From Candidatus Methanophagaceae archaeon (lineage in GTDB: Archaea; Halobacteriota; Syntropharchaeia; Alkanophagales; Methanospirareceae), in assembly GCA_003194425.1 (NCBI GenBank), contig PQXB01000001.1:199265-263264 (forward strand): a DNA stretch of 64,000 bases. Reading direction: 5' to 3'. The notes below the pieces were generated by a model. The model worked only from the letters and a program-made list of their open reading frames with translations, did not search any database and was not told where the DNA came from. Of the stretch, positions 9,175 to 24,733 are shown one piece after another. Position 1 is the first letter of the stretch; each line of letters opens with the position of its first letter. Both the position numbers and the translations under genes were made by a program.

Positions 9175-9993
9175 ATGACGAAACGAATAATTCCCTGCCT
9201 TGACACGACATTTGACGAGCAGGGTAAAGCGGTTGTAGTGAAGGGCGTAGAATTTGAGCAGCTCAAGTACGCAGGAGACCCGGTTGAACTCGCAAAGCGG
9301 TACGACGAGCAGGGGGCGGACGAACTCGTTTTTCTCGACATTTCTGCCTCTTTAGAGCGGCGGGAGACGATGATTTCGGTCGTAGAGGAAATAGCCGAGC
9401 AGGTCTCTGTTCCTCTCTGCGTGGGGGGCGGGATAAAAAGCGTAGCGGATTTTGAGCGGGTCTTTGGCGCTGGTGCGGAGAAGGTGGGCGTAAACACCGC
9501 TGCGGTTAGGAATCCCGGTTTGGTAAAAGAAGCAGCAGAGAGGTTTGGTGGAGAACGCGTCGTGGCCGCAATTGACTGCAAGCGGAAGTTCGAGGGAGCA
9601 GAAGAAGAAGGGAAGACGCAGGTGCGGTTAGAAGACGGGACGAGTGCGTGGTACGAGGTGGTAATTTACGGGGGGCGTGAGAACACGGGAATTGACGCGG
9701 TAAAGTGGGCGGAGGAGGTGCAGGCGCTCGGGGCTGCCGAGATTTTGCTGACTTCAAAGGACAGGGACGGGACGACCGACGGGTACGACATTCCAATTAC
9801 AAGAGCAATTTCTGAGGCGGTGGAGATTCCTGTAATCGCTTCTGGAGGCGTTGGGACGGTAGAACACATTTACGAGGGGTTTGTCTGCGGTGCGGACGCC
9901 TGCCTGGCAGCGAGTATTTTTCACTACGAAAAGTACACGGTTGGCGAAATAAAGCGATATTTAAGGGAGAGGGGGATTTCTGTGCGGTTGTGA
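9175..9993 (+). CDS. hisF: Imidazole glycerol phosphate synthase cyclase subunit
   Basis: [27 protein letters not shown] and [11 protein letters not shown] are typical HisF, as is the C-terminal IASGGVG. It has an internal insertion. Confidence 0.9.
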
Positions 9994-10023
9994 TTTAATA
10001 AGGACTACGCAAAAGTTTATTCA

Positions 10024-10557
10024 ATGTTGCCACCCACTGCAGAAACAGTTCTTACCGCGGTTTGGTTAATGCTGCCCGCGTACGTAACAAACTCAAGTGC
10101 AGCCTTCTTTGGCGGTAAGACACCTTTAGACCGCGGCATTAGTTGGGGCAGAAACAGGCTGCTCGGCGACGGCAAGACCTACGAAGGTCTCTTAAAAGGC
10201 TTCTCGTGCGGCTTCCTCGTCGGCGTCGCTCAGCAGCAGGTCTCAGGCTCGTTTGGAGATTCCCCCTGGTTTTTGGTCTCGCTCTTCTGCCTCTCCGCGG
10301 GTGCGATGCTCGGCGACATTCTCGGTAGTTTCGTAAAACGGCGGGTTGGAGTGAAACGCGGTGCTCCTGTTCCTCTGCTCGACCAACTGGACTTTGTGGC
10401 TGGTGCGTGGCTGCTTCTGTTCGTGTTCGCGCGGGACTGGTTCGTTGAGGCGTTCAGTTGGGAAGTGGCGGTTGCGGTTCTCCTCGTTACTCCGCCGTTG
10501 CACCTGCTCGCAAATTACGCGGGCTTTAAACTGGGGCGGAAGAGCGTTTGGTGGTGA
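10024..10557 (+). CDS. Small polytopic membrane protein, possibly CDP-archaeol synthase (CarS/DUF46-like)
   Basis: 177 aa with several predicted TM helices. The size and hydropathy resemble CarS. No diagnostic motif is confirmed. Confidence 0.4.
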   Translation: MLPPTAETVLTAVWLMLPAYVTNSSAAFFGGKTPLDRGISWGRNRLLGDGKTYEGLLKGFSCGFLVGVAQQQVSGSFGDSPWFLVSLFCLSAGAMLGDILGSFVKRRVGVKRGAPVPLLDQLDFVAGAWLLLFVFARDWFVEAFSWEVAVAVLLVTPPLHLLANYAGFKLGRKSVWW

Positions 10558-10716
10558 GAGAGTAGCGAAAAAGCGAAAAATATATTTAAAGCGGGGCAAA
10601 AAATACTTGAGACACGAGGCGAGAATGCGTAGAAGAGAAGAAGGCGAGAAAGGGGAAGGGGAAGAGAAGGCGAGAGAAACGCAAGGGAAAGCGAGGAACA
10701 GGGACGGGAGGAAAGG

Positions 10717-15829: not shown

Positions 15830-16129
15830 TTGAGAGGGGCAGAAGGGGCAGAGGAAGTAGTGCGCGTGCGACTCCCACAAAGGAGGGAGCGGGAAGTGTT
15901 AGCAGTAGTTGAGAAGTTGTTAGGCGGGCGGAGGGCGAAGGTGCAGTGCCTGGACGGTGTGGAGCGGCTGGCACGGATTCCGGGCAGGCTGAAGCGGCGG
16001 AAGTGGGTAAAAGCAGGGGATGTTGTAATAATTGTGCCGTGGGATTTTCAGGACGCGAAGGCAGACCTCATTTACAGGTACGAACAACCTCAGGTGGAAT
16101 GGCTGCGAAAGAAGGGCTACTTGAATTAG
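15830..16129 (+). CDS. eif1a: Translation initiation factor 1A (aIF-1A)
   Basis: VVRVRLPQRREREVLAVVEKLLGGRRAKVQCLDGVERLARIPGRLKRRKWVKAGDVVIIVPWDF is an S1-like OB fold typical of aIF1A. Confidence 0.85.
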   Translation: MRGAEGAEEVVRVRLPQRREREVLAVVEKLLGGRRAKVQCLDGVERLARIPGRLKRRKWVKAGDVVIIVPWDFQDAKADLIYRYEQPQVEWLRKKGYLN

Positions 16130-17172
16130 AAGCGGAGGCAGAAGAAGCCGTAGAGGTAGAAGAAGGGCGGTGGCTGAGGGTAGAAGAAGGGCGGTGGCTG
16201 AGAAAGGAAGGGAAGCTGCAGTCCAAGGGAAAGAGGAGGAGGAAGGATTTTCGGGACAGGAAAACGGAGTTGGAGGTTCTCGACACGCTGACTTTGGAAA
16301 CGCTCTACAAACTCTCGAAGCAGGGGATTTTAAAAGCGTTGGGCGGACCCGTGAGTAGCGGCAAAGAAGCAGTCGTCTTTCACGCAGTAGGTGGAGGCGG
16401 TGCAGAAGGAGAGTTGGCGGTAAAAATCTACAAGACCAGCACCTCTAATTTTAATACAATGTTGGACTACATTCTCGGCGACCCCAGGTTTGCGAGGGTG
16501 AAAAGAGACCGCAGGAGCGTCGTTTTCGCGTGGGCTCGTAAGGAGTTCAAGAACCTGAAGCGGGCGTTTGACGCGGGCGTGCGAGTTCCGAAGCCGATTG
16601 CCTGCGAGAAAAATGTGCTTGTGATGGAGTTCGTAGGAGAAGGGGAAGGGGCAGGGACAGAAGGAGCAGGGGAGGAAGGGGAGGCGGTAGCGGCGCCGAG
16701 GTTGAGAGACGTGCCCGTGGAAGTGCTTGAGCGAGAGTTTTGCGGTGGCGTTGAAGAACTTTTTTTGCGTGTCGTCGCCGCTGTGAAGATTTTGTACGCG
16801 AAGGCGGGGCTGGTGCACGCTGACCTCAGCGAGTTCAATATTTTGCTCAACTTCAACTTTTTCTCTAAAGAGAAAACCTTGACTAAAAGAGGCTCTGAAG
16901 AGAACTCCTTCACTAAAAGAGGCTCTGAAGAGAACTCCTTCACTAAAAGAGGGACAGAGGAGGCAGCAGAGCCCGTGATAATAGATATGGGGCAGTCTGT
17001 GCTTTTGGAGCACCCTAACGCGGACGCTTTCTTAAGGCGAGATGTGAAAAATATCGTCGCGTTCTTTAACAAACTCGGATTGGACTGTGCAGGCTCAGAA
17101 GACGAAATACTGAGGAAGGTGAAGGGGGAGAGGGAAAGGAGGGGGAGGGAAGAGGGTGAGAAGGAGAGGTAA
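16099..17172 (+). CDS. rio1: RIO-type serine/threonine protein kinase (Rio1). The track ORF starts at 15946. The start used here, 16099 (MAAKEG...), is a guess.
   Basis: LKALGGPVSSGKEAVVFHA is the ATP-binding loop. LVHADLSEFNILL is the catalytic loop. The conserved order aIF1A-Rio1-KH supports the call. It contains a 30-bp x3 in-frame repeat encoding TKRGSEENSF three times. Confidence 0.8.
   Translation: MAAKEGLLELEAEAEEAVEVEEGRWLRVEEGRWLRKEGKLQSKGKRRRKDFRDRKTELEVLDTLTLETLYKLSKQGILKALGGPVSSGKEAVVFHAVGGGGAEGELAVKIYKTSTSNFNTMLDYILGDPRFARVKRDRRSVVFAWARKEFKNLKRAFDAGVRVPKPIACEKNVLVMEFVGEGEGAGTEGAGEEGEAVAAPRLRDVPVEVLEREFCGGVEELFLRVVAAVKILYAKAGLVHADLSEFNILLNFNFFSKEKTLTKRGSEENSFTKRGSEENSFTKRGTEEAAEPVIIDMGQSVLLEHPNADAFLRRDVKNIVAFFNKLGLDCAGSEDEILRKVKGERERRGREEGEKER
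16883..16952. repeat. In-frame tandem repeat, 30-bp unit x about 2.5, inside the Rio1 kinase gene
   Basis: ACTAAAAGAGGCTCTGAAGAGAACTCCTTC is repeated. It encodes TKRGSEENSF repeated. Confidence 0.9.
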
Positions 17173-17174
17173 AA

Positions 17175-17738
17175 ATGGCAACGCAACAACACAAACAGCA
17201 GATTAGGGTTAGGATTCCTCTGGACAGAGTGGGCGCTCTAATCGGGCGTGACGGTGCTGTAAAGGGGATTTTAGAGAAAAAATCAGAGACGAAAATAGCA
17301 GTGGACAGCAACGAAGGAGAAGTGTGCGTAGAGGGCGTAGAAGGTGGAGACCCCGTAAAAGTGCTCGGAGCTGCAGAGGTGGTAAAGGCAGTAGGCAGGG
17401 GTTTTTCGCCCGAAAAGGCTCTTGCACTGCTTGACGATGATTTTGTCCTGCTCGACCTCGTCTCCCTTGCCCACCTCTCGCCGAAGACGCTGAAACGGGT
17501 GAAGGGGCGAGTAATCGGGCAGAACGGGCGAACGAGGCGGACGGTAGAGAACTTGGCGGGCGTTAAAATCTCGGTCTACGGGAAGACCGTCGGCTTAATC
17601 GGACATTCGCACCAGATAAGGACTGCGCGTGAGGCTGTCGAAATGCTGATAAACGGCTCGCCGCACAGCGCGGTCTACTCCTTCTTGGAACGGCGGCGAG
17701 CGGAGGAGAGAGGGAAGGAGGGCGTTCGTGAGTCGTGA
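17175..17738 (+). CDS. KH-domain RNA-binding protein (Dim2/Krr1-like)
   Basis: IGRDGAVKGILEKKSETKIAV and a second IGQNGRTRRTVENLAGVKISV are two KH motifs. Its position after Rio1 is conserved in archaea. Confidence 0.75.
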   Translation: MATQQHKQQIRVRIPLDRVGALIGRDGAVKGILEKKSETKIAVDSNEGEVCVEGVEGGDPVKVLGAAEVVKAVGRGFSPEKALALLDDDFVLLDLVSLAHLSPKTLKRVKGRVIGQNGRTRRTVENLAGVKISVYGKTVGLIGHSHQIRTAREAVEMLINGSPHSAVYSFLERRRAEERGKEGVRES

Positions 17739-18430
17739 GGAACTTTGAGGAGGAACGGCGGCGGCTGGTGGAGCGTCTCAGGGCTCAAGGCGTCGGCAGT
17801 GAGGAAGTGTTGGCGGCGCTGGGGCGTGTTAAACGGCACTTTTTTGTCCCGCAGCACCTTGCAGAGCAGGCGTACGCCGACTACCCGCTGCCGATTGGCG
17901 AGGGTCAGACGATTAGCGCACCGCACATTGTTGCGCTAATGTGCACTTATTTGGAGTTGCGGCGGGGGGAGAAGGTGCTTGAAATTGGCGCTGGCTCGGG
18001 CTACCACGCCGCGGTCGTTGCAGAACTCGTGGGCGAGGAGGGACAGGTGTACTCAGTGGAAAGGGTTGAGTGGTTGGCGGAATTTGCAAGGGCGAACCTG
18101 AGGCGGGCGGGCTACACGCAGGCGAGTGAGGGCGTGGTGCGGGGCGACGGAACTCTGGGGCTGCCCGAGCACGCGCCGTACGACAAAATAAGCGTTGCCT
18201 GCGCTGCCCCTGATGTGCCACCGCCGTTGCTTGAGCAGTTGCGAGCAGGCGGGAGAATGGTCATTCCAATTGGGAAATTTATGCAGACGTTGTATCTGGT
18301 GAAGAAGGAGAAGGGAAAAGAGAAGGAGCGAGAGAGGCAGGAGGGCAGGGAAGAGGTAGTGCGGGAGAGGAAGTGCAGTGTGGTCTTTGTGCCTCTGGTG
18401 GGGCGGTACGGGTTCAGGGAAGAAGATTAA
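17735..18430 (+). CDS. pcm: Protein-L-isoaspartate O-methyltransferase
   Basis: QTISAPHIVALMCTYLELRRGEKVLEIGAGSGYHAAVVA carries the PIMT motifs. Confidence 0.85.
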   Translation: MRNFEEERRRLVERLRAQGVGSEEVLAALGRVKRHFFVPQHLAEQAYADYPLPIGEGQTISAPHIVALMCTYLELRRGEKVLEIGAGSGYHAAVVAELVGEEGQVYSVERVEWLAEFARANLRRAGYTQASEGVVRGDGTLGLPEHAPYDKISVACAAPDVPPPLLEQLRAGGRMVIPIGKFMQTLYLVKKEKGKEKERERQEGREEVVRERKCSVVFVPLVGRYGFREED

Positions 18431-18597
18431 AAGAATGCAGAAGAGATTATTTGAAGGAAATGTTGAGCAGGGGGAAGACAGGAATAAGAGGGAGGGGTTT
18501 GTGATAAAGGATCGGGAAAAGAAGCAGAAATATTCTGCTGAAGAGATAAAAAATAAAGTTATCTCGGGAGATGCTTTCAAAGTTCTTAAGAAAATGA

Positions 18598-19365
18598 GTG
18601 AGTAAAAATGTTCAAAAGGAGTTTTTGAAAATGGTTACTAAAGTAGAAGCAATCAAAAAGGTTTTGGAGGATTTTAATGGCGTGGCAACTTGGGAGCAAA
18701 TTTATGAGAATATTGAAAATTTTTATCCGTCAGCTAAAGTAAGTAGAGAATGGAAAGCGGGGATACGGGGGGTTTTATACAGAGAACTCAAGAATAACAG
18801 AATTTTTAAAAAGATAGGTTTGGGAATTTATGCGTTAAAAGATTATGAGGAGGAAGAGAAGCCAAAGCCTGAGGAGAGGAGAAGAATGCACCCTTACATT
18901 GAAGGTATTTGCTTGGAGATCGGCAGGTTTGAAGGTTTTGAGACTTACACACCTGATAAATCCGCTGTATTCACGGACGGTATTTATTTAGGTCAAATCG
19001 CAACACTTTTAGAAATTCCTCAATTCACTTATCCAGAAATCGTAAATGTCGTGAGAAGAATAGATGTTTTGTGGTTCAACAGCGTAGGCTTTAAGTTTCC
19101 CAAATACGCGATTGAGGTAGTAGATGCCGCTGGAACGCTTACCGACGCTCTGAACAGGTGCTTTCAATTGGTCTATTTTAACACTAACTTTACAATCGTG
19201 GGACCTGTGGAATACAAGGATAAATTTGAAGGGAAGATGAACAATGAACCTTACTTGAGGATTAGAGAGCGATTTGAGTTTAAGGACTACAAAATAGTTA
19301 CGGATTTCTACGAATATTCAGTGAAAATGGACGAAGTTAGAAAAGGATTTTTTAGGGGTGTGTAA
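18598..19365 (+). CDS. Uncharacterised protein of the AT-rich island. The N-terminus looks like a HARE-HTH/Mrr-N-like winged helix. The C-terminal roughly 160 aa are an unknown globular domain, possibly nuclease-like.
   Basis: VATWEQIYENIENFYPSAKVSREWKAGIRGVLYRELKNNRIFKKIGLGIYAL ends with the G-x-G-x-[YW]-x-L pattern typical of HARE-HTH/Mrr_N. The GC content, about 40%, contrasts with about 60% in flanking genes. Confidence 0.45.
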   Translation: MSKNVQKEFLKMVTKVEAIKKVLEDFNGVATWEQIYENIENFYPSAKVSREWKAGIRGVLYRELKNNRIFKKIGLGIYALKDYEEEEKPKPEERRRMHPYIEGICLEIGRFEGFETYTPDKSAVFTDGIYLGQIATLLEIPQFTYPEIVNVVRRIDVLWFNSVGFKFPKYAIEVVDAAGTLTDALNRCFQLVYFNTNFTIVGPVEYKDKFEGKMNNEPYLRIRERFEFKDYKIVTDFYEYSVKMDEVRKGFFRGV

Positions 19366-19395
19366 GCAAGCGGAAGCAAGCGGGAGGAAAATAAA

Positions 19396-20286
19396 ATGAA
19401 CTATGAAAAGTTTTGTTCAATTATGAACGAGCAGATATTCAGGGAGGATAAGAAAAAACTGCTGAGAATAATTGCTTCACAGGAGCTGTATTTTGGAGAT
19501 TTCAGCCTGTTAAATTCGCAAATATTCCTGGGCAGTTGTTTGCAGCATCTCTTGCAGTCCCGCGAGATTAGATTTGGAGATGCGATGGAAGAGTTGATTT
19601 CGGAGTTGCTGCGTGAGTGGGGATTTAAGGTGCTTCCAAAAATAATCCTGCCCGACGCCGCGAATAAAAGGAAGAGGCTTGAAATAGACCAATATTTTAC
19701 GAAGTCCGAGGGGGGGGAGGTTTTTTATTTCATCGAGCAGAAGGTTAGAGACGACCACGATTCCACGAAGAAGAAAGGACAACTGAACAATTTTGAGGCG
19801 AAGTTGGAGTTTCTTTACAAGAAGCACGGCGAGAGGCTTGAGGGAATTATGTATTTTGTCGACCCTGATTTGAGCAAGAACAGGAATTTTTATGCGGAAG
19901 AACTGAAGAAGATGGAAGAGACTTACGGGCTAAAATTGGAGATTCTTTACGGCAAGGAGCTCTTTGAATATTTTGGGAGAGGGGAGTTGTGGGAGGCGAT
20001 TTTGGAGTGGTTAGGGGAGTGGAAGGAGGGTTTGCCAGAACTGCCGGAGATAAACTTTGATACCAGTCCAAGAGAGAGTTTTGAAGAGATCAAAGATTTG
20101 GAGGTAAGGTATTGGAGAAGAATCTTAGGGAACGAGAGGCTGTGGGAAGGAGGAATAATGAAAGCGATTTTTAGAGAAGGTGAGACTTTGCGGAGTTTGT
20201 TAGAATTTTTCAGATTGGAGGAGCAGGATCTCGCACACGAACGGTTGGCTGAGTTGCTTACTCAAAGATTAAAAGAATTTTACTGA
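19396..20286 (+). CDS. Putative PD-(D/E)xK-family endonuclease, a candidate restriction endonuclease. Island gene 2.
   Basis: ILPDAANKRKRLEIDQYF...VFYFIEQKVRDD gives PD, then about 27 residues, then E-Q-K. It lies in the AT-rich, compositionally foreign island. No similarity to neighbouring housekeeping genes was seen. Confidence 0.45.
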   Translation: MNYEKFCSIMNEQIFREDKKKLLRIIASQELYFGDFSLLNSQIFLGSCLQHLLQSREIRFGDAMEELISELLREWGFKVLPKIILPDAANKRKRLEIDQYFTKSEGGEVFYFIEQKVRDDHDSTKKKGQLNNFEAKLEFLYKKHGERLEGIMYFVDPDLSKNRNFYAEELKKMEETYGLKLEILYGKELFEYFGRGELWEAILEWLGEWKEGLPELPEINFDTSPRESFEEIKDLEVRYWRRILGNERLWEGGIMKAIFREGETLRSLLEFFRLEEQDLAHERLAELLTQRLKEFY

Positions 20287-20300
20287 CACAAATAACACCA

Positions 20301-20759
20301 ATGACCGAGCAGATGCTTTCGCCTGCGAGCGGGAAGGTAACGAGGGTTGAAGAAGGAGGAGACCGAGAAGACCGAGGAGACCGAACGATTTCTATTTTTA
20401 TGCACCTCCACAACGTGCACGTCACTGCCGCACCGTTAGACGGAGTGGTGAAAAAAATAACACCCGAGCTGGGAGGTACTTTCAAGCCCGCATTTCTCCG
20501 CAGCAGCGATTTCAACACGAGGAACACGATTGAACTCGCGACGAAATACGGGGAGGTGAAAGTAGTGCAAATAGCGGGATTTTTTACGCGGAAGATCAAG
20601 TGCGAGGTGAAAGTAGGGCAGGAGGTCGCTAAAGGAGAGAGAATGGGTAAAATCTGCTTTGGCTCTCGCGTGGATGTGAGCGTTCCCGAGGGGCTTGAGA
20701 TTTTGGTGCAGAAGGGGGAGAAGGTGCGGTGTAGGAGGACTGTTTTGGCGGAGCGGTAA
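20301..20759 (+). CDS. Phosphatidylserine (archaetidylserine) decarboxylase-related protein, short archaeal form
   Basis: A 152-aa protein with a C-terminal GKICFGSRVDV that resembles the Psd processing-site region. The call is weak. Confidence 0.4.
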   Translation: MTEQMLSPASGKVTRVEEGGDREDRGDRTISIFMHLHNVHVTAAPLDGVVKKITPELGGTFKPAFLRSSDFNTRNTIELATKYGEVKVVQIAGFFTRKIKCEVKVGQEVAKGERMGKICFGSRVDVSVPEGLEILVQKGEKVRCRRTVLAER

Positions 20760-21975: not shown

Positions 21976-23457
21976 TTAATACGACCTTGCGATGTACACC
22001 CTCTTCCCGCCTCTCGCGCAAATTACGCATTTTCCTTCGCTTCCTCCCTTGCCCTCTCGTCCGCCTTCTTCTCTTTCTCCGCCTTCCCCACTTTCTCCGC
22101 TTTTCCCCTCCGCCACTGCTCCTCTTTCTCCTCCTTCCCTGTTTTCCGCCACTGCCTCTCCCAACACACTCACTCCAAGCCGCTCCTCCACTTCCCGCCC
22201 GCACCGTTCTTGCCCGCAGAGGAACACGGAGGAAAAGCCGCGGAAAGCCGTTTTTGCTCGCTCGTGAATTTGGTCTTGGATCTCGCTCAGCGCCCTCTTC
22301 ACCTCCGAGACCACCTCGGCGAGTGGGACTTGTGTCCTCGAGAAGTCGTGCCTGCAGACGAGTTCGCAGCTCTTCGCCCTCAAATCCCGCGGACCGACCT
22401 CAACCCGCAACGGCACGCCCTTCAACTCCCACTTGAAATACTTCGCCCCCGGCCTCTCGTCCGAGTCGTCCAAAAGAACCCGCACACCCGCCTCTTTCAA
22501 CTCTTTGACCACACCAACGCCCGCCTGCAACACTTCTTCTGCACCCCCTTCTGCACCCCCTTCTGTACCGCTTCGCCCCCGCGAGTACAAAATCGGCACG
22601 ACAACAACCTGCACGGGCGCGACCTCGGGAGGCAGCACCAGACCCCGCTCGTCGCCGTGCACCGAAATCACCGCGGCGACGCACCGCTCTGAAATGCCGT
22701 AGCAGGTCTGGTTAACGAACTTCAGCGAGCCGTCTCGGTCCTCGAATTTTATCTCAAAAGTCCTCGCAAAACTCTCACCGAGCAGGTGAATTGTCGCAAC
22801 CTGCAACGCCCGCCCGTCAGGCAGCAGCGTGTCAAACGCGAGGGTGTAGTCCGCCCCCGGGAACTTGTCCCACTCCGGCCGCCGCGTTACCAAGTAGGGA
22901 ACTGCGAGTCGGTCGAAGAATTCTTTGTAAAGTGTGACCGCTTTCTTCACCTGCTCCTCCGCCTCGGCTCGGCTTGCGTGCACGGTGTGCGCCTCTTTGA
23001 ACGAGGTGATTTCACGCAGCCGAATTAGCGGTCGCGTGTGCTTCGTCTCGTACCTGAAAGTGTTCACGATTTGGTAAATCCGGAGCGGCAAGTCCCGGTG
23101 CGACCGAATCCAGACCTTAAACACAGGGTAAATCGCGGTCTCCGAAGTGGGGCGGAGTGCGAGAGGGACCTCCAACTCCGTGCTGCCTCCCTTCGTTACC
23201 CAAAAAACCTCCTCCTCAAACCCTTTTATGTGCTCCTTCTCCTTCAGCAACTCGTCCTCGGGAATCAAAAGCGGGAACAACACTTCCTCGTGCTCCTCGT
23301 CCAAGAGCGACCGCAGAATCCCGTAAATCAGATTCCGCAGTTTGTAGCCGTGCGGAAACCACACGTACGCCCCCTTCACCGGGTACCGCACGTCCAAAAT
23401 CTCCGCCCGCTTCAAGATCTCGCTGTACCACTCACTGAAATCGCTTTTGCGTTCCAT
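21976..23457 (-). CDS. proS: Prolyl-tRNA synthetase, archaeal/eukaryal type
   Basis: N-terminal [36 protein letters not shown] and class II aaRS motifs. A C-terminal G/E/R low-complexity extension is present. Confidence 0.9.
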
Positions 23458-23465
23458 TTTCTTCT

Positions 23466-23537
23466 TGCGTTAGAGAGCCGCTGGTGGGACTTGAACCCAC
23501 GCTCTGCTGATTACGAATCAGCCGCTTTACCTCTAAG
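23466..23537 (-). tRNA. tRNA-Thr (anticodon CGU)
   Basis: Hand-folded cloverleaf: GCCGCUG acceptor stem, anticodon loop UUCGUAA, T-loop GGUUCAAGUCC. Confidence 0.8.
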
Positions 23538-23583
23538 CCACAGCGGCGTAACTTTTAGAGACTGACACTACTGACACTAGATT

Positions 23584-23623
23584 TAGTTTAGAATGTTTAG
23601 TTTAGAATGTTTAGTTTAGAATG
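23584..23623. repeat. Tandem repeat, 13-bp unit GTTTAGTTTAGAAT x3, adjacent to tRNA-Thr
   Basis: Direct reading. Confidence 0.85.
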
Positions 23624-23684
23624 CAACATTTAAATACTAACAGAACAATTAAAATCACAGGAACAATTGTAAATCACAGAAAAA

Positions 23685-23918
23685 ATGAAGAAAGAGGAAG
23701 TAGTGCATTTGCATTTGTTGCTGGCACAGTTGAAGAAATATTGTGAGGAGAACGGAGGGAACGGTGAGTTTGTGAAGTACAACAAGTTGGGCATTACACC
23801 TTTTCAGGTGCACCGAAGCAAAGCAGAACACAAACAAGCGATTTTCGTTCTCGGAACCGAACTTGTGTCAGTGACTGCAGGGAACAACGGCAATTTCCTG
23901 GTGACTAACAAAAAGTGA
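23685..23918 (+). CDS. Small hypothetical protein in an AT-rich tRNA-adjacent segment
   Basis: A 77-aa ORF in a roughly 500-bp AT-rich patch next to tRNA-Thr. No recognisable motif. Confidence 0.25.
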   Translation: MKKEEVVHLHLLLAQLKKYCEENGGNGEFVKYNKLGITPFQVHRSKAEHKQAIFVLGTELVSVTAGNNGNFLVTNKK

Positions 23919-24037
23919 AGAAACTCTACTTGGCAGATCTGACAGGTCTAACAGGGTCTGCTTCTTCACTAAAGAGGGGGTTAATTTGTATTTTTTAGAA
24001 GGAGTAAGAAAAAAAGTGATTTTTGACATATTTTATT

Positions 24038-24733
24038 TTATTTAAAAAAAGTTTTGTACGCTTTTATTATTTCCTTTCCTTCCAGAAATACTAAGCCGCG
24101 TTCCGCCGCGAAAGATTTTGCGTCAGATTTGGAGACCGCATTCCCGGTCTTGCTGTCCAGCATTTCACAGATTACCGCAGCCGGAGGAGAAATGCCCGCG
24201 AGCAGTGCCAACGCCACCGAGAGCTCGGTCTGCCCCCTCCGCTCCTCGAGTAGTCCGTTTGCAGCACGCAGAATCGAGACGTGCCCGGGGGTTCGGAACT
24301 CCGAGTAAAAGTCATAATCTTTGCCGCTTAGCACTTTCTCAACCGCCTCACCCACCTTTTTTATCGTCAGCGACCTGTCCCGGTCGGTTATTCCTGTAAA
24401 AGTTTCGCGGTGGTTCACCCACAGCGAGAAAGAGGAGCGTCTGTCGTACGAGAGGTCGCCCGTCCCCTCGACCATTTTTTTTAGCGGCGCGAAGTTCCTC
24501 AAAATATCGCTCATCAAAGGGAGACCGAGTCGCTCCGCGGCGGCAGCGTGAACGGCGACGCAAATTAGCCCGCCCGCCTCTCTTCTAAAATACGCGACCT
24601 TCCGTGGCGTCACAAAAGAAGCCGGCAGCACAAAGTCCGTCTCGCCCTCTCTGTCCTCAGCGTCGTAAATCAAGACGAGCCTGCCCTTCTTTACTTCTTC
24701 AATTCCACGCTCTACCGAGTCTGGGATTTTCAT
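24038..24733 (-). CDS. ribB: 3,4-dihydroxy-2-butanone 4-phosphate synthase
   Basis: LVLIYDAEDREGETDFVLPASFVTP and GLICVAV are typical DHBP synthase motifs. Confidence 0.85.
   Translation of the reverse strand: MKIPDSVERGIEEVKKGRLVLIYDAEDREGETDFVLPASFVTPRKVAYFRREAGGLICVAVHAAAAERLGLPLMSDILRNFAPLKKMVEGTGDLSYDRRSSFSLWVNHRETFTGITDRDRSLTIKKVGEAVEKVLSGKDYDFYSEFRTPGHVSILRAANGLLEERRGQTELSVALALLAGISPPAAVICEMLDSKTGNAVSKSDAKSFAAERGLVFLEGKEIIKAYKTFFK

What the first reader, a model, noticed from the sequence alone, without database searches (positions are those of the whole stretch)
18435..20290. Compositionally foreign two-gene island (wHTH protein plus PD-(D/E)xK-like nuclease) between pcm and a psd-like gene: a candidate novel restriction or defence module
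GC content drops from about 60% to about 40% exactly between the stop of pcm (18430) and the start of the next high-GC gene (20301). Codon usage in the island is AAA/ATA/TTA-rich, unlike its neighbours. The island genes also lack the in-frame tandem-repeat insertions that litter nearly every native gene in this window. It encodes two same-strand genes. Gene 1 (18598-19365) has an N-terminal HARE-HTH/Mrr-N-like winged helix (...REWKAGIRGVLYRELKNNRIFKKIGLGIYAL) and an uncharacterised C-terminal domain. HARE-HTH domains are typical of restriction or modified-DNA-sensing systems. Gene 2 (19396-20286) has a PD-x27-EQK arrangement (ILPDAAN...FIEQKVRDD), the PD-(D/E)xK nuclease signature. No methyltransferase is present. 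A short upstream ORF fragment ending ...KVISGDAFKVLKKMSE* (about 18435-18605) weakly resembles the very N-terminus of N4/N6 DNA methyltransferases (i..GDa.e.Lk.l, which precedes the DPPY motif). That could be a decayed methyltransferase remnant. Taken together this looks like a horizontally acquired, possibly methylation-dependent (Type IV-like) or otherwise undescribed restriction or defence pair.
Basis: partly seen in the sequence, partly recalled or inferred. Interest (0 to 1): 0.78.

Follow-up and report, generated by a model that had tools for sequence, protein, structure and literature searches.

The report
Broken restriction operon carrying extra nuclease
The low-GC island is a horizontally acquired, HinfI/HpyAIV-type (GANTC) restriction-modification operon whose methyltransferase has shrunk to a 56-codon stub, while its restriction enzyme and an embedded, uncharacterised "winged-helix + nuclease" gene remain intact; that embedded gene recurs inside restriction operons of many bacteria and archaea, usually next to a broken methyltransferase.

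Summary
Window 18431-20300 has GC 0.40, against 0.60 for pcm and 0.53 for psd. Related ANME-1-like genomes have pcm and psd directly adjacent, so this is an insertion.

- **Gene 2 (19396-20286)** is not novel. It is an HpyAIV/HinfI-family Type II restriction enzyme (NCBIfam 205 bits, cut-off 160).
- **The upstream fragment (18435-18605)** is a real remnant of a CcrM/M.HinfI-like adenine methyltransferase. It covers residues 11-60 only and lacks the DPPY motif and the AdoMet site.
- **Gene 1 (true start 18631, 244 aa)** has a winged helix (HARE-type) joined to an NmeDI_C-type PD-(D/E)xK nuclease. Every homologue is annotated "hypothetical".

Gene 1 occupies the junction between methyltransferase (M) and restriction enzyme (R) genes in HinfI-, TdeIII/HinfI- and AlwI-type operons. 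In one lineage it is a discrete 935-bp substitution cassette. Next to it, M is truncated at at least 15 different points, often with R intact. In 54 gene-1-free operons M is never truncated.

I think gene 1 is most likely a stand-alone reader-nuclease of Type IV kind. How the host tolerates R without M is unresolved. The known components make this ordinary; the recurrent M loss is unexpected. I rate it a new variant of a known kind, interest about 0.55.

The parts
18431..20300 (+). Inserted low-GC island between pcm and psd
   Evidence: GC is 0.404, against 0.603 and 0.529 for the flanking genes. pcm and psd are adjacent in related contigs L091-L094.
18423..18436 (.). Left copy of the 14-nt direct repeat AAGATTAAAAGAAT. 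It spans the pcm stop codon and the first two bases of the methyltransferase-stub ATG.
   Evidence: No match this long in 5000 shuffles.
18435..18605 (+). 56-codon stub of a CcrM/M.HinfI-like beta-class N6-adenine DNA methyltransferase (pseudogene). It stops before the DPPY motif.
   Evidence: BLASTP E=9e-14 to residues 11-60 of the intact MTase L015:5054-5998. That MTase hits N6_N4_Mtase at 5.7e-54 and its best NCBIfam match is CcrM. The homologous stub in L002 still carries DPPY.
18631..19365 (+). Gene 1, a 244-aa reader-nuclease. Winged helix (HARE-type) is about residues 1-72 (18631-18846), an acidic linker follows, and the NmeDI_C-type PD-(D/E)xK domain is about residues 83-244 (18877-19362). 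Candidate active-site residues are E91 (18901-18903), D145 (19063-19065) and E162 (19114-19116).
19396..20286 (+). Gene 2, a 296-aa HpyAIV/HinfI-family Type II restriction endonuclease. Invariant residues are D98 (19687-19689) and E114-Q115-K116 (19735-19743). Residues about 29-48 depart from the canonical family motif.
   Evidence: NCBIfam NF045832 E=9.8e-61, 205.5 bits (cut-off 160). PADLOC REase_II 5e-66. PF09520 precomputed. Alignments.
20265..20278 (.). Right copy of the 14-nt direct repeat, inside the last codons of gene 2

Best explanation
**What it is.** The island is a horizontally acquired remnant of a three-gene operon. The operon's order is a CcrM/M.HinfI-like methyltransferase (M), then gene 1, then an HpyAIV/HinfI-family restriction enzyme (R, expected site GANTC).

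**What is shown.**
- M has been deleted down to a 56-codon N-terminal stub that cannot methylate.
- Gene 1 and R are full length and keep every family-invariant residue.
- Gene 1 is a separate module that has been placed in the M/R junction of restriction operons by recombination.

**What is inferred.**
- Gene 1 works on its own as a reader-nuclease. Its N-terminal HARE-type winged helix would recognise DNA, most likely a modified base, as in Type IV / DpnI-like enzymes. Its C-terminal NmeDI_C PD-(D/E)xK domain would cut nearby, like the cleavage modules of NmeDI and Type IIS enzymes.
- The M stub probably survives only as the 5' leader of the transcript.
- R must be kept harmless in some way. 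A GANTC methyltransferase could be encoded elsewhere in the genome. Alternatively, altered R activity could be linked to its remodelled residues 29-48, or gene 1 itself could restrain R.
For: **Family assignments.** R. M stub.

**Gene 1 fold.** A winged helix plus a PD-(D/E)xK domain. PF27126 NmeDI_C and PF05066 appear on homologues, and one UniRef name is 'HTH HARE-type domain-containing protein'.

**Modularity.** The same nuclease module is fused to an EVE reader domain in P0287 (hhalign 99.8%, E=1.5e-28). It sits at the C-terminus of proteins of 150-420 aa with varied N-termini.

**Stand-alone occurrence.** Gene 1 also occurs alone, with a small HTH ORF, among housekeeping genes (L005, L008). 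By my count, only about 10 of 80 gene-1 loci have an intact adjacent MTase. That is close to the 13% reported for proven Type IV winged-helix fusions (PMC11037411).

**Same slot, other cargo.** An EVE+nuclease gene (a typical Type IV architecture) occupies the same M-R junction in at least 9 gene-1-free operons.

**Intact reference operon.** M-gene1-R is intact in L015. At DNA level gene 1 there is a 935-bp substitution for about 190 bp of the M/R junction of otherwise 80-94% identical operons.

**Insertion in the window.**
Against: - No biochemical data exist for any family member.
- A direct Pfam scan of gene 1 found neither HARE-HTH nor NmeDI_C. The local Pfam copy appears to lack PF27126, so the domain label rests on precomputed hits to homologues.
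- About half of gene-1 loci have an MTase gene or fragment immediately adjacent, which is unusual for Type IV enzymes.
- The window has 164 GANTC sites (observed/expected 0.67) and no other DNA MTase candidate. An intact R is therefore unexplained.
- Intact M and intact gene 1 coexist in about 6 lineages. Gene 1 therefore cannot simply attack DNA methylated by that M.
Confidence: 0.5

Rival explanations
1. Gene 1 and R form a methyltransferase-independent two-nuclease module. Gene 1 restrains, gates or partners R. M therefore becomes dispensable and is lost, while R is kept.
For: - **M status.** In HinfI-type operons with intact R, M is truncated in 6 of 9 with gene 1 (4 distinct junctions). 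It is truncated in 0 of 54 without gene 1 (Fisher p=1e-6 and 7e-5).
- **Second R-M family.** The same pattern holds in an unrelated family. About 10 loci carry a D12-class MTase N-terminal fragment (Pfam positions 1-85 to 1-140 of 253), then gene 1, then a full-length 521-534-aa AlwI-family enzyme.
- **R is conserved but remodelled.** The R core stays conserved. Residues about 29-48 follow the canonical motif RPERF[IV]GLFRPTKPGAK, which is 80-91% conserved in gene-1-free and EVE-linked R. They are diverged in every gene-1-linked R, across several branches of the R tree.
Against: - Gene 1 is highly conserved yet sits next to unrelated R families, so a direct protein-protein fit to all of them is unlikely.
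- Gene 1 is common without any R.
- No precedent is known to me for a non-methyltransferase immunity protein for a Type II enzyme.
- The counts are not phylogenetically independent, and the two samples were collected differently (one by gene 1, one by R).
Confidence: 0.2
2. Gene 1 is a DpnI-like enzyme specific for the methylation made by the displaced M (Gm6ANTC or related). It forms the complementary allele of the R-M operon, as DpnI does for DpnII in S. pneumoniae. M is lost because it conflicts with gene 1.
For: - The winged helix + PD-(D/E)xK composition matches DpnI (own knowledge; PMC11037411).
- M is truncated on its gene-1-proximal side whatever the gene order: M'-gene1-R, and R-gene1-'M as in L069, L072, L078, L083.
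- In H. pylori HUP-B14 (L090) the cassette replaces the middle of an M-R pair, truncating both genes.
- The cassette is exchanged by recombination within M and R.
Against: - Intact M with intact gene 1 occurs in L015/L104, L026, L038, L043, L056 and L068.
- If GANTC is left unmethylated, the intact R in the window, L002, L047, L048 and L063 should be lethal.
- The associated MTases belong to two classes, probably with different sites.
Confidence: 0.15
3. The island is an inert, decaying remnant of an R-M operon with no current function.
For: - M is already destroyed.
- The island has no promoter region of its own upstream of the stub, with only 4 nt between the pcm stop and the stub ATG.
- Its GC has not moved toward that of the host.
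Against: - Gene 1 keeps 44 of 44 invariant positions, and R keeps all 73 positions invariant in a 9-sequence alignment.
- Both genes have Shine-Dalgarno-like motifs.
- The same arrangement (stub-gene1-R) is kept in a distant lineage, L002, at 69% and 56% identity.
- Gene 1 is intact in about 95% of 80 loci, while its neighbours decay.
Confidence: 0.1
4. Gene 1 is a homing-endonuclease-like selfish gene. It cuts gene-1-free R-M operons and is copied in during repair.
For: - It is a discrete substitution cassette with sharp boundaries inside M and R.
- It is polyphyletic on the R tree, and R-M contexts are intermixed on the gene 1 tree.
- Flanking deletions of variable extent are present.
Against: - Purifying selection on gene 1 is strong after fixation, and many copies lie outside R-M operons.
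- One conserved winged helix is unlikely to target both D12-class and N6_N4-class MTase genes.
- None were found in 2.9 million viral contigs.
Confidence: 0.05

Closest known systems
HpyAIV / HinfI Type II restriction-modification systems (GANTC; M upstream of R)
   Same: Gene 2 passes the curated HpyAIV family threshold. The stub is homologous to the CcrM/M.HinfI-like MTase that sits 9-30 nt upstream of R in 54 gene-1-free metagenomic operons.
   Different: The methyltransferase is destroyed and a third gene sits between M and R. Residues about 29-48 of R depart from the canonical family motif.
Winged-helix fusion endonucleases acting as m6A-dependent Type IV systems (DpnI, HhiV4I, FcyTI and others; Helbrecht et al. 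2024, PMC11037411)
   Same: A winged-helix DNA reader fused to a nuclease. Family members often occur alone, and an intact neighbouring MTase is rare (about 12%).
   Different: The domain order is wH then nuclease, and the nuclease module is different (NmeDI_C). The winged helix is HARE-type, which that paper suggests may read cytosine modifications. The paper does not mention NmeDI. No activity data exist. Gene 1 is physically nested in R-M operons.
R.NmeDI of Neisseria meningitidis (Type II; RCCGGY, cuts 12/7 on both sides; PMC2095814)
   Same: It shares the C-terminal NmeDI_C domain, according to the Pfam label on gene 1 homologues. Cutting at a distance fits a separable cleavage module.
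   Different: NmeDI is 351 aa with a different N-terminal region, and it has a cognate C5 methyltransferase. I did not have its sequence to compare directly.
DpnI/DpnII complementary cassettes of S. pneumoniae (own knowledge)
   Same: Alternative gene sets occupy one locus and are exchanged by recombination in shared flanks. One allele is an M+R pair and the other is a wH+PD-(D/E)xK nuclease without M.
   Different: Here the flanks are the R-M genes themselves. R often survives beside gene 1, and methyl-dependence is unproven.
Accessory genes embedded in R-M loci (PrrC in the EcoprrI Type I locus; hrgA replacing hpyIIIR in H. pylori; own knowledge)
   Same: An extra or replacing gene sits inside a restriction operon and is inherited with it.
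   Different: Those cases keep the methyltransferase. Here it is the methyltransferase that is lost.

Membership tests
HpyAIV/HinfI family Type II restriction endonuclease (NF045832 / PF09520) | Profile score above the curated family cut-off over the full length | tested here: met
   205.5 bits against a cut-off of 160, residues 1-266 on model positions 1-267 of 269. PADLOC REase_II 5.1e-66.
HpyAIV/HinfI family Type II restriction endonuclease (NF045832 / PF09520) | Conserved catalytic core (D...EQK) retained | tested here: met
   D98 and E114-Q115-K116 are invariant in A5. Only conservative changes occur in the core relative to 54 reference sequences.
HpyAIV/HinfI family Type II restriction endonuclease (NF045832 / PF09520) | Cognate GANTC methyltransferase encoded alongside | tested here: not met
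   Only a 56-aa stub remains. No other MTase candidate lies in the 64-kb window.
HpyAIV/HinfI family Type II restriction endonuclease (NF045832 / PF09520) | Cleavage of unmethylated GANTC | not testable with these tools
   Needs an enzyme assay.
Beta-class N6-adenine DNA methyltransferase (CcrM/M.HinfI-like, PF01555), for the stub | Catalytic DPPY motif and C-terminal AdoMet-binding FxGxG motif | tested here: not met
   The stub ends at ...KVLKKMSE*, before DPPY. The intact homologue has FIDPPYF and DPLAGTG. It is a remnant, not a member.
NmeDI_C domain (PF27126) | Significant match to the Pfam model | tested here: inconclusive
   The local Pfam copy gave no hit, and the model appears newer than the copy. 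Precomputed PF27126 hits are on most homologues of 50-82% identity.
NmeDI_C domain (PF27126) | PD-(D/E)xK nuclease fold with conserved acidic residues | tested here: met
HARE-HTH (PF05066) | Match to the HARE-HTH profile | tested here: inconclusive
   No hit for gene 1 itself at E<=1; Forkhead scored 0.02. PF05066 is recorded on 2 of 120 homologues. UniRef names a 49%-identical homologue an HTH HARE-type domain protein.
HARE-HTH (PF05066) | Winged-helix fold | tested here: met
Type IV (modification-dependent) reader-nuclease fusions | A DNA-reader domain fused to a nuclease, with reader domains swapped on the same nuclease | tested here: met
   wH+NmeDI_C in gene 1. EVE+NmeDI_C-type nuclease in P0287. 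Varied N-termini.
Type IV (modification-dependent) reader-nuclease fusions | Stands alone, without a cognate methyltransferase | tested here: inconclusive
   Solitary copies exist. An intact MTase is adjacent in about 10 of 80 loci, but MTase genes or fragments are adjacent in about half.
Type IV (modification-dependent) reader-nuclease fusions | Cleaves only modified DNA | not testable with these tools
   Needs assays on methylated, hydroxymethylated and unmodified DNA.

The most novel reading that the evidence does not exclude
Gene 1 defines a cassette that colonises the M/R junction of GANTC-type and related Type II operons, and it takes over from the methyltransferase as the partner of the restriction enzyme. 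The result would be an MTase-less two-nuclease defence module, with a reader-nuclease plus a remodelled Type II enzyme. Self-protection would then no longer depend on methylation. This would explain three things: why M is lost at at least 15 distinct junctions only when gene 1 is present, why the R core stays conserved, and why R residues 29-48 are rewritten in every gene-1-linked R.
Probability: 0.2. Interest if true: 0.8.

Novelty: new variant of a known kind. Interest (0 to 1): 0.55.

Why it matters
- **An inverted decay order.** Restriction enzymes are normally lost before their methyltransferases, because the reverse order kills the cell. A widespread gene family whose presence goes with the reverse order is therefore informative. 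The family spans Helicobacter, Bacteroides/Prevotella, candidate-phyla (CPR) bacteria, Nanoarchaeota, Thermoplasmatales and ANME-1. Its pattern points to hidden protecting methyltransferases, to a nuclease that conflicts with methylation, or to a new way of restraining a Type II enzyme.
- **A cargo slot.** The data show that the M-R junction of HinfI-type operons holds different cargo genes (a winged-helix nuclease, an EVE nuclease and others), exchanged by recombination inside the R-M genes.
- **A tractable target.** Gene 1 is a small, well-conserved and uncharacterised candidate for a new modification-reading or distance-cutting endonuclease.
- **For the window itself.** The island is evidence of recent gene transfer into an ANME-1-like archaeon.

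Tried and rejected
- **psd truncated by the insertion.** Rejected. Orthologues are 144-160 aa.
- **Gene 1 on phages.** No relatives in 2.9 million viral contigs, and no PHROG hit.
- **Annotated relatives.** The only plasmid hit is a 28%-identical hypothetical protein in Halobacterium, with an uninformative neighbourhood. All cluster members are named hypothetical.
- **Solved structures by sequence.** None found, with either the single sequence or the profile.
- **Foldseek against PDB.** Nothing below E=1e-3. The afdb50 library was not available.
- **Literature.** Searches for NmeDI, HARE-HTH, HpyAIV and a GANTC methyl-dependent enzyme found no description of this gene family or of the M-loss pattern. 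The Aravind & Iyer 2012 HARE-HTH paper is not held.
- **EVE-nuclease gX sharing gene 1's nuclease domain.** Rejected (hhalign probability 0.3%).
- **The last 40 nt of M retained upstream of gene 1.** Similarity to L015 is only 35 of 54 aligned positions, which is too weak to claim.
- **GANTC avoidance as a sign of long exposure.** Observed/expected is only 0.67, second lowest of 16 palindromes of the form NNnNN. This is not decisive.
Full report
**1. The observation.**

The composition break is real and sharp. GC is 0.603 in pcm (17735-18430), 0.404 across 18431-20300, and 0.529 in psd (20301-20759). Third-position GC is 0.40 in gene 1 and 0.55 in gene 2, against 0.70 in pcm and 0.61 in psd.

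Tandem Repeats Finder finds no repeat inside either island gene. The neighbouring native genes carry several in-frame arrays.

The host is an ANME-1/Methanophagales-like archaeon, judging from the closest psd homologues. Four related contigs (L091-L094) keep the window's gene order: RIO1, KH, pcm, psd, a 374-aa gene, ProRS, UPF0058, DHBP synthase. In all four, pcm and psd are directly adjacent. The 1.87 kb is therefore an insertion.

A perfect 14-nt direct repeat, AAGATTAAAAGAAT, lies at both edges (18423-18436 and 20265-20278). No match this long appeared in 5000 shuffles or in 3000 random pairs of genomic windows.

**2. Gene 2 (19396-20286).**

This is a member of a known family. NCBIfam 'HpyAIV family type II restriction enzyme' scores 205.5 bits (cut-off 160, E=9.8e-61). 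PADLOC REase_II gives 5e-66. The precomputed Pfam label is PF09520.

It keeps all 73 positions that are invariant in an alignment of nine relatives, including D98 and E114-Q115-K116.

**3. The upstream fragment (18435-18605).**

It aligns at 55% identity (E=9e-14) to residues 11-60 of a 315-aa methyltransferase, L015:5054-5998. That protein has a complete N6_N4_Mtase domain, and its best NCBIfam match is CcrM, the GANTC adenine methyltransferase.

The window copy stops before the DPPY motif. The homologous stub in locus L002 runs a little further and still reads FIDPPYFLQLQNKEL before stopping. The remnant hypothesis is therefore confirmed.

**4. Gene 1.**

*Boundaries and family.*
- Homologues all start M(V/T)TKVEAI, so the start is ATG 18631, with AAGGAG 8 nt upstream.
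- The family has more than 300 members in the 90% clusters. It was found in 127 species genomes at 45-80% identity. These include H. pylori, Bacteroides, Prevotella, Campylobacter, CPR bacteria, Nanoarchaeota and Thermoplasmatales.
- All are named 'hypothetical protein', except for one UniRef name, 'HTH HARE-type domain-containing protein'.
- Most homologues carry the precomputed Pfam label PF27126 (NmeDI_C), and two carry PF05066 (HARE-HTH).

*Structure.*

*Modularity.*
- The nuclease module alone finds 295 cluster representatives. It is always C-terminal, in proteins of 150-420 aa with varied N-termini.
- One of these, P0287, has an EVE domain in place of the winged helix, followed by the same nuclease (hhalign 99.8%, E=1.5e-28).
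Winged-helix fusions have been shown to be m6A-dependent Type IV enzymes (PMC11037411). This family is not covered in that paper.

**5. Context across genomes.**

Gene 1 sits inside restriction-modification operons, between M and R.

*HinfI-type operons.*
- An intact trio exists in L015: M 315 aa, gene 1, R 299 aa.
- Three gene-1-free operons (L096, L099, L102) align to L015 at DNA level over M (80-82% identity) and over R from codon about 45 onward (91-94%).
- The roughly 190 nt of the M/R junction are replaced in L015 by 935 nt. This segment holds the M tail, gene 1 and the first 50 or so codons of R.
- Gene 1 is therefore a discrete cassette, exchanged by recombination within the R-M genes.
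- In line with this, gene-1-linked R proteins are scattered over the R tree, and R-M contexts are intermixed on the gene 1 tree.

*Other R-M families.*
- In about 10 loci an N-terminal fragment of a D12-class (Dam-like) MTase precedes gene 1, covering Pfam positions 1-85 up to 1-140 of 253. A full-length 521-534-aa AlwI-family enzyme follows gene 1.
- In operons ordered R-gene1-M, it is the 5' part of M that is missing (L069, L072, L078, L083).

**6. The unexpected pattern.**

- *M is broken next to gene 1.* Next to gene 1 the methyltransferase is usually broken, at many different points. On the reference M (L015:5054-5998) the HinfI-type junctions fall at residues 60, 84, 95, 165, 177, 190, 222, 230 and 259. 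The AlwI-type and TdeIII-type loci add further distinct junctions.
- *R is often still full length.* This holds in the window, L002, L016, L047, L048, L063 and all the AlwI-type loci.
- *The control shows no such loss.* Of 80 metagenomic loci recovered with R as the query, 54 could be evaluated and lack gene 1. All 54 have a full-length M ending within about 60 nt upstream of R, or further upstream when other cargo is inserted. None is truncated.
- *Statistics.* For HinfI-type operons with intact R the split is 6 of 9 truncated against 0 of 54 (Fisher p=1e-6). Counting distinct junctions only, it is 4 of 7 (p=7e-5).
- *Caveats.* The two samples were collected differently and are not phylogenetically independent.
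- *R is remodelled only next to gene 1.* The N-proximal motif of R, RPERF[IV]GLFRPTKPGAK (residues about 29-48), is diverged in every gene-1-linked R. In gene-1-free R it is 80-91% conserved. It is also kept in R next to a different inserted gene, an EVE+PD-(D/E)xK protein of about 340 aa found in at least 9 operons, where M is intact.
- *Gene 1 is the best-preserved part.* It is intact in about 95% of 80 loci and keeps its invariant residues.

**7. What it most likely is and does.**

*Shown.* The window carries a degraded three-gene operon: an M stub, gene 1 and R.

*Inferred.* Gene 1 is an autonomous reader-nuclease of Type IV kind that rides in the M-R slot. The supporting points are these:
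- its domain logic;
- the EVE-swapped relative;
- the solitary copies, often preceded by a 53-60-aa HTH-like ORF that the window clade lacks;
- the low rate of intact neighbouring MTases, about 10 of 80 by my count;
- the presence of another Type IV-like gene in the same slot.

*Unexplained.* The window has 164 GANTC sites (observed/expected 0.67) and no other MTase candidate. An active R therefore needs protection from elsewhere.

The alternatives each explain part of the data and conflict with another part.
- *A DpnI-like enzyme against the displaced M's own mark.* This explains the M loss. It does not explain the intact trios or the surviving R.
- *A gene 1-R partnership that makes M dispensable.* This explains the M loss, the R retention and the R remodelling. 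It has no precedent, and it must work with unrelated R families.
- *Simple decay.* This is contradicted by the conservation of gene 1 and R.
- *Homing.* This is contradicted by the strong selection on gene 1 and by its many copies outside R-M operons.

**8. Comparison and verdict.**

Gene 2 and the stub belong to described families. Gene 1 is an uncharacterised member of a catalogued domain family, with an architecture of a known kind. The island is therefore not a categorically new system.

What appears new is gene 1's cassette behaviour in the M-R junction and the associated loss of the methyltransferase with retention of the restriction enzyme. I found no description of either in the searched literature.

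I rate the finding a new variant of a known kind, interest about 0.55. There is roughly a 20% chance that the more radical reading, an MTase-less two-nuclease module, is correct.

Noticed in passing
window 18423-18436 and 20265-20278: A perfect 14-nt direct repeat, AAGATTAAAAGAAT, sits at both island edges. The left copy overlaps the pcm stop codon. The right copy lies in the last codons of R, whose C-terminus (…QRLKEFY*) resembles those of homologues. It may mark the integration event (microhomology or terminal redundancy). I did not resolve the mechanism.
   Followed up: partly
L097, L121, L131, L132, L134, L161, L165, L168, L172 (between M and R, about 1 kb upstream of R): A protein of about 336-348 aa with an EVE domain (PF01878) and a C-terminal D...ELK nuclease-like motif sits in the same M-R junction of HinfI-type operons that lack gene 1. 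In these loci M is intact and R keeps its canonical N-proximal motif.
   Followed up: partly
L114, L116, L118 (about 171-173 aa) and L115, L120 (111 aa), between M and R: Two further unrelated small genes occupy the M-R junction. One has no Pfam hit (…KYLYHATSV…) and one is weakly HTH-like. The junction therefore behaves as a variable cargo slot.
   Followed up: no
Immediately upstream of gene 1 in L008, L014, L017, L024, L029, L033, L043, L044, L053, L054, L056, L061, L070, L073, L075, L082, L087, L090; downstream of gene 1 in L026, L068: A conserved 53-60-aa ORF, for example MDKIIIQIKCSSETCEKLRKEGLFFETIADALDIGRDDIIEVDD…. It has weak HTH_3/HTH_19 similarity and is possibly a controller-like regulator. 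It is absent from the window clade.
   Followed up: partly
L028 5191-6611 and about 9190-10610: The module HTH gene, D12 MTase fragment and truncated gene 1 (204 aa) appears twice, on either side of the AlwI-family gene.
   Followed up: no
L090 (H. pylori HUP-B14, NC_017733 1327952-1340632): Here the small ORF plus gene 1 lie between a 159-aa MTase fragment and a 135-aa C-terminal fragment of an R homologue. The gene 1 cluster has 293 members across H. pylori strains, all named hypothetical. This looks like an allelic replacement of an R-M pair.
   Followed up: partly
window 15946-17172, 20356-20384, 22060-22100, 22536-22569: Native genes carry in-frame tandem repeats. Examples are 30 nt x3 at 16863-16952 in the RIO kinase gene, 9 nt x3.2 in psd and 12-18-nt repeats in ProRS. 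Orthologues in related contigs are shorter in some cases (RIO1 is 282 aa in L091 and 408 aa here).
   Followed up: no
window about 23450-24200: A second low-GC patch (0.38-0.40) lies upstream of and around the UPF0058 gene. It has a perfect 14-nt x3 tandem repeat (TTTAGTTTAGAATG, 23582-23623) and a 19-nt x2 repeat (23643-23679). The gene order matches related contigs, so it is probably an intergenic or promoter region rather than an island.
   Followed up: no
P0287 (325 aa, from the representative library): An EVE domain (residues 2-138) is fused to the same nuclease module as gene 1 (38% identity over 154 columns). This is a natural reader-domain swap. Its genomic context could not be looked up.
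   Followed up: partly
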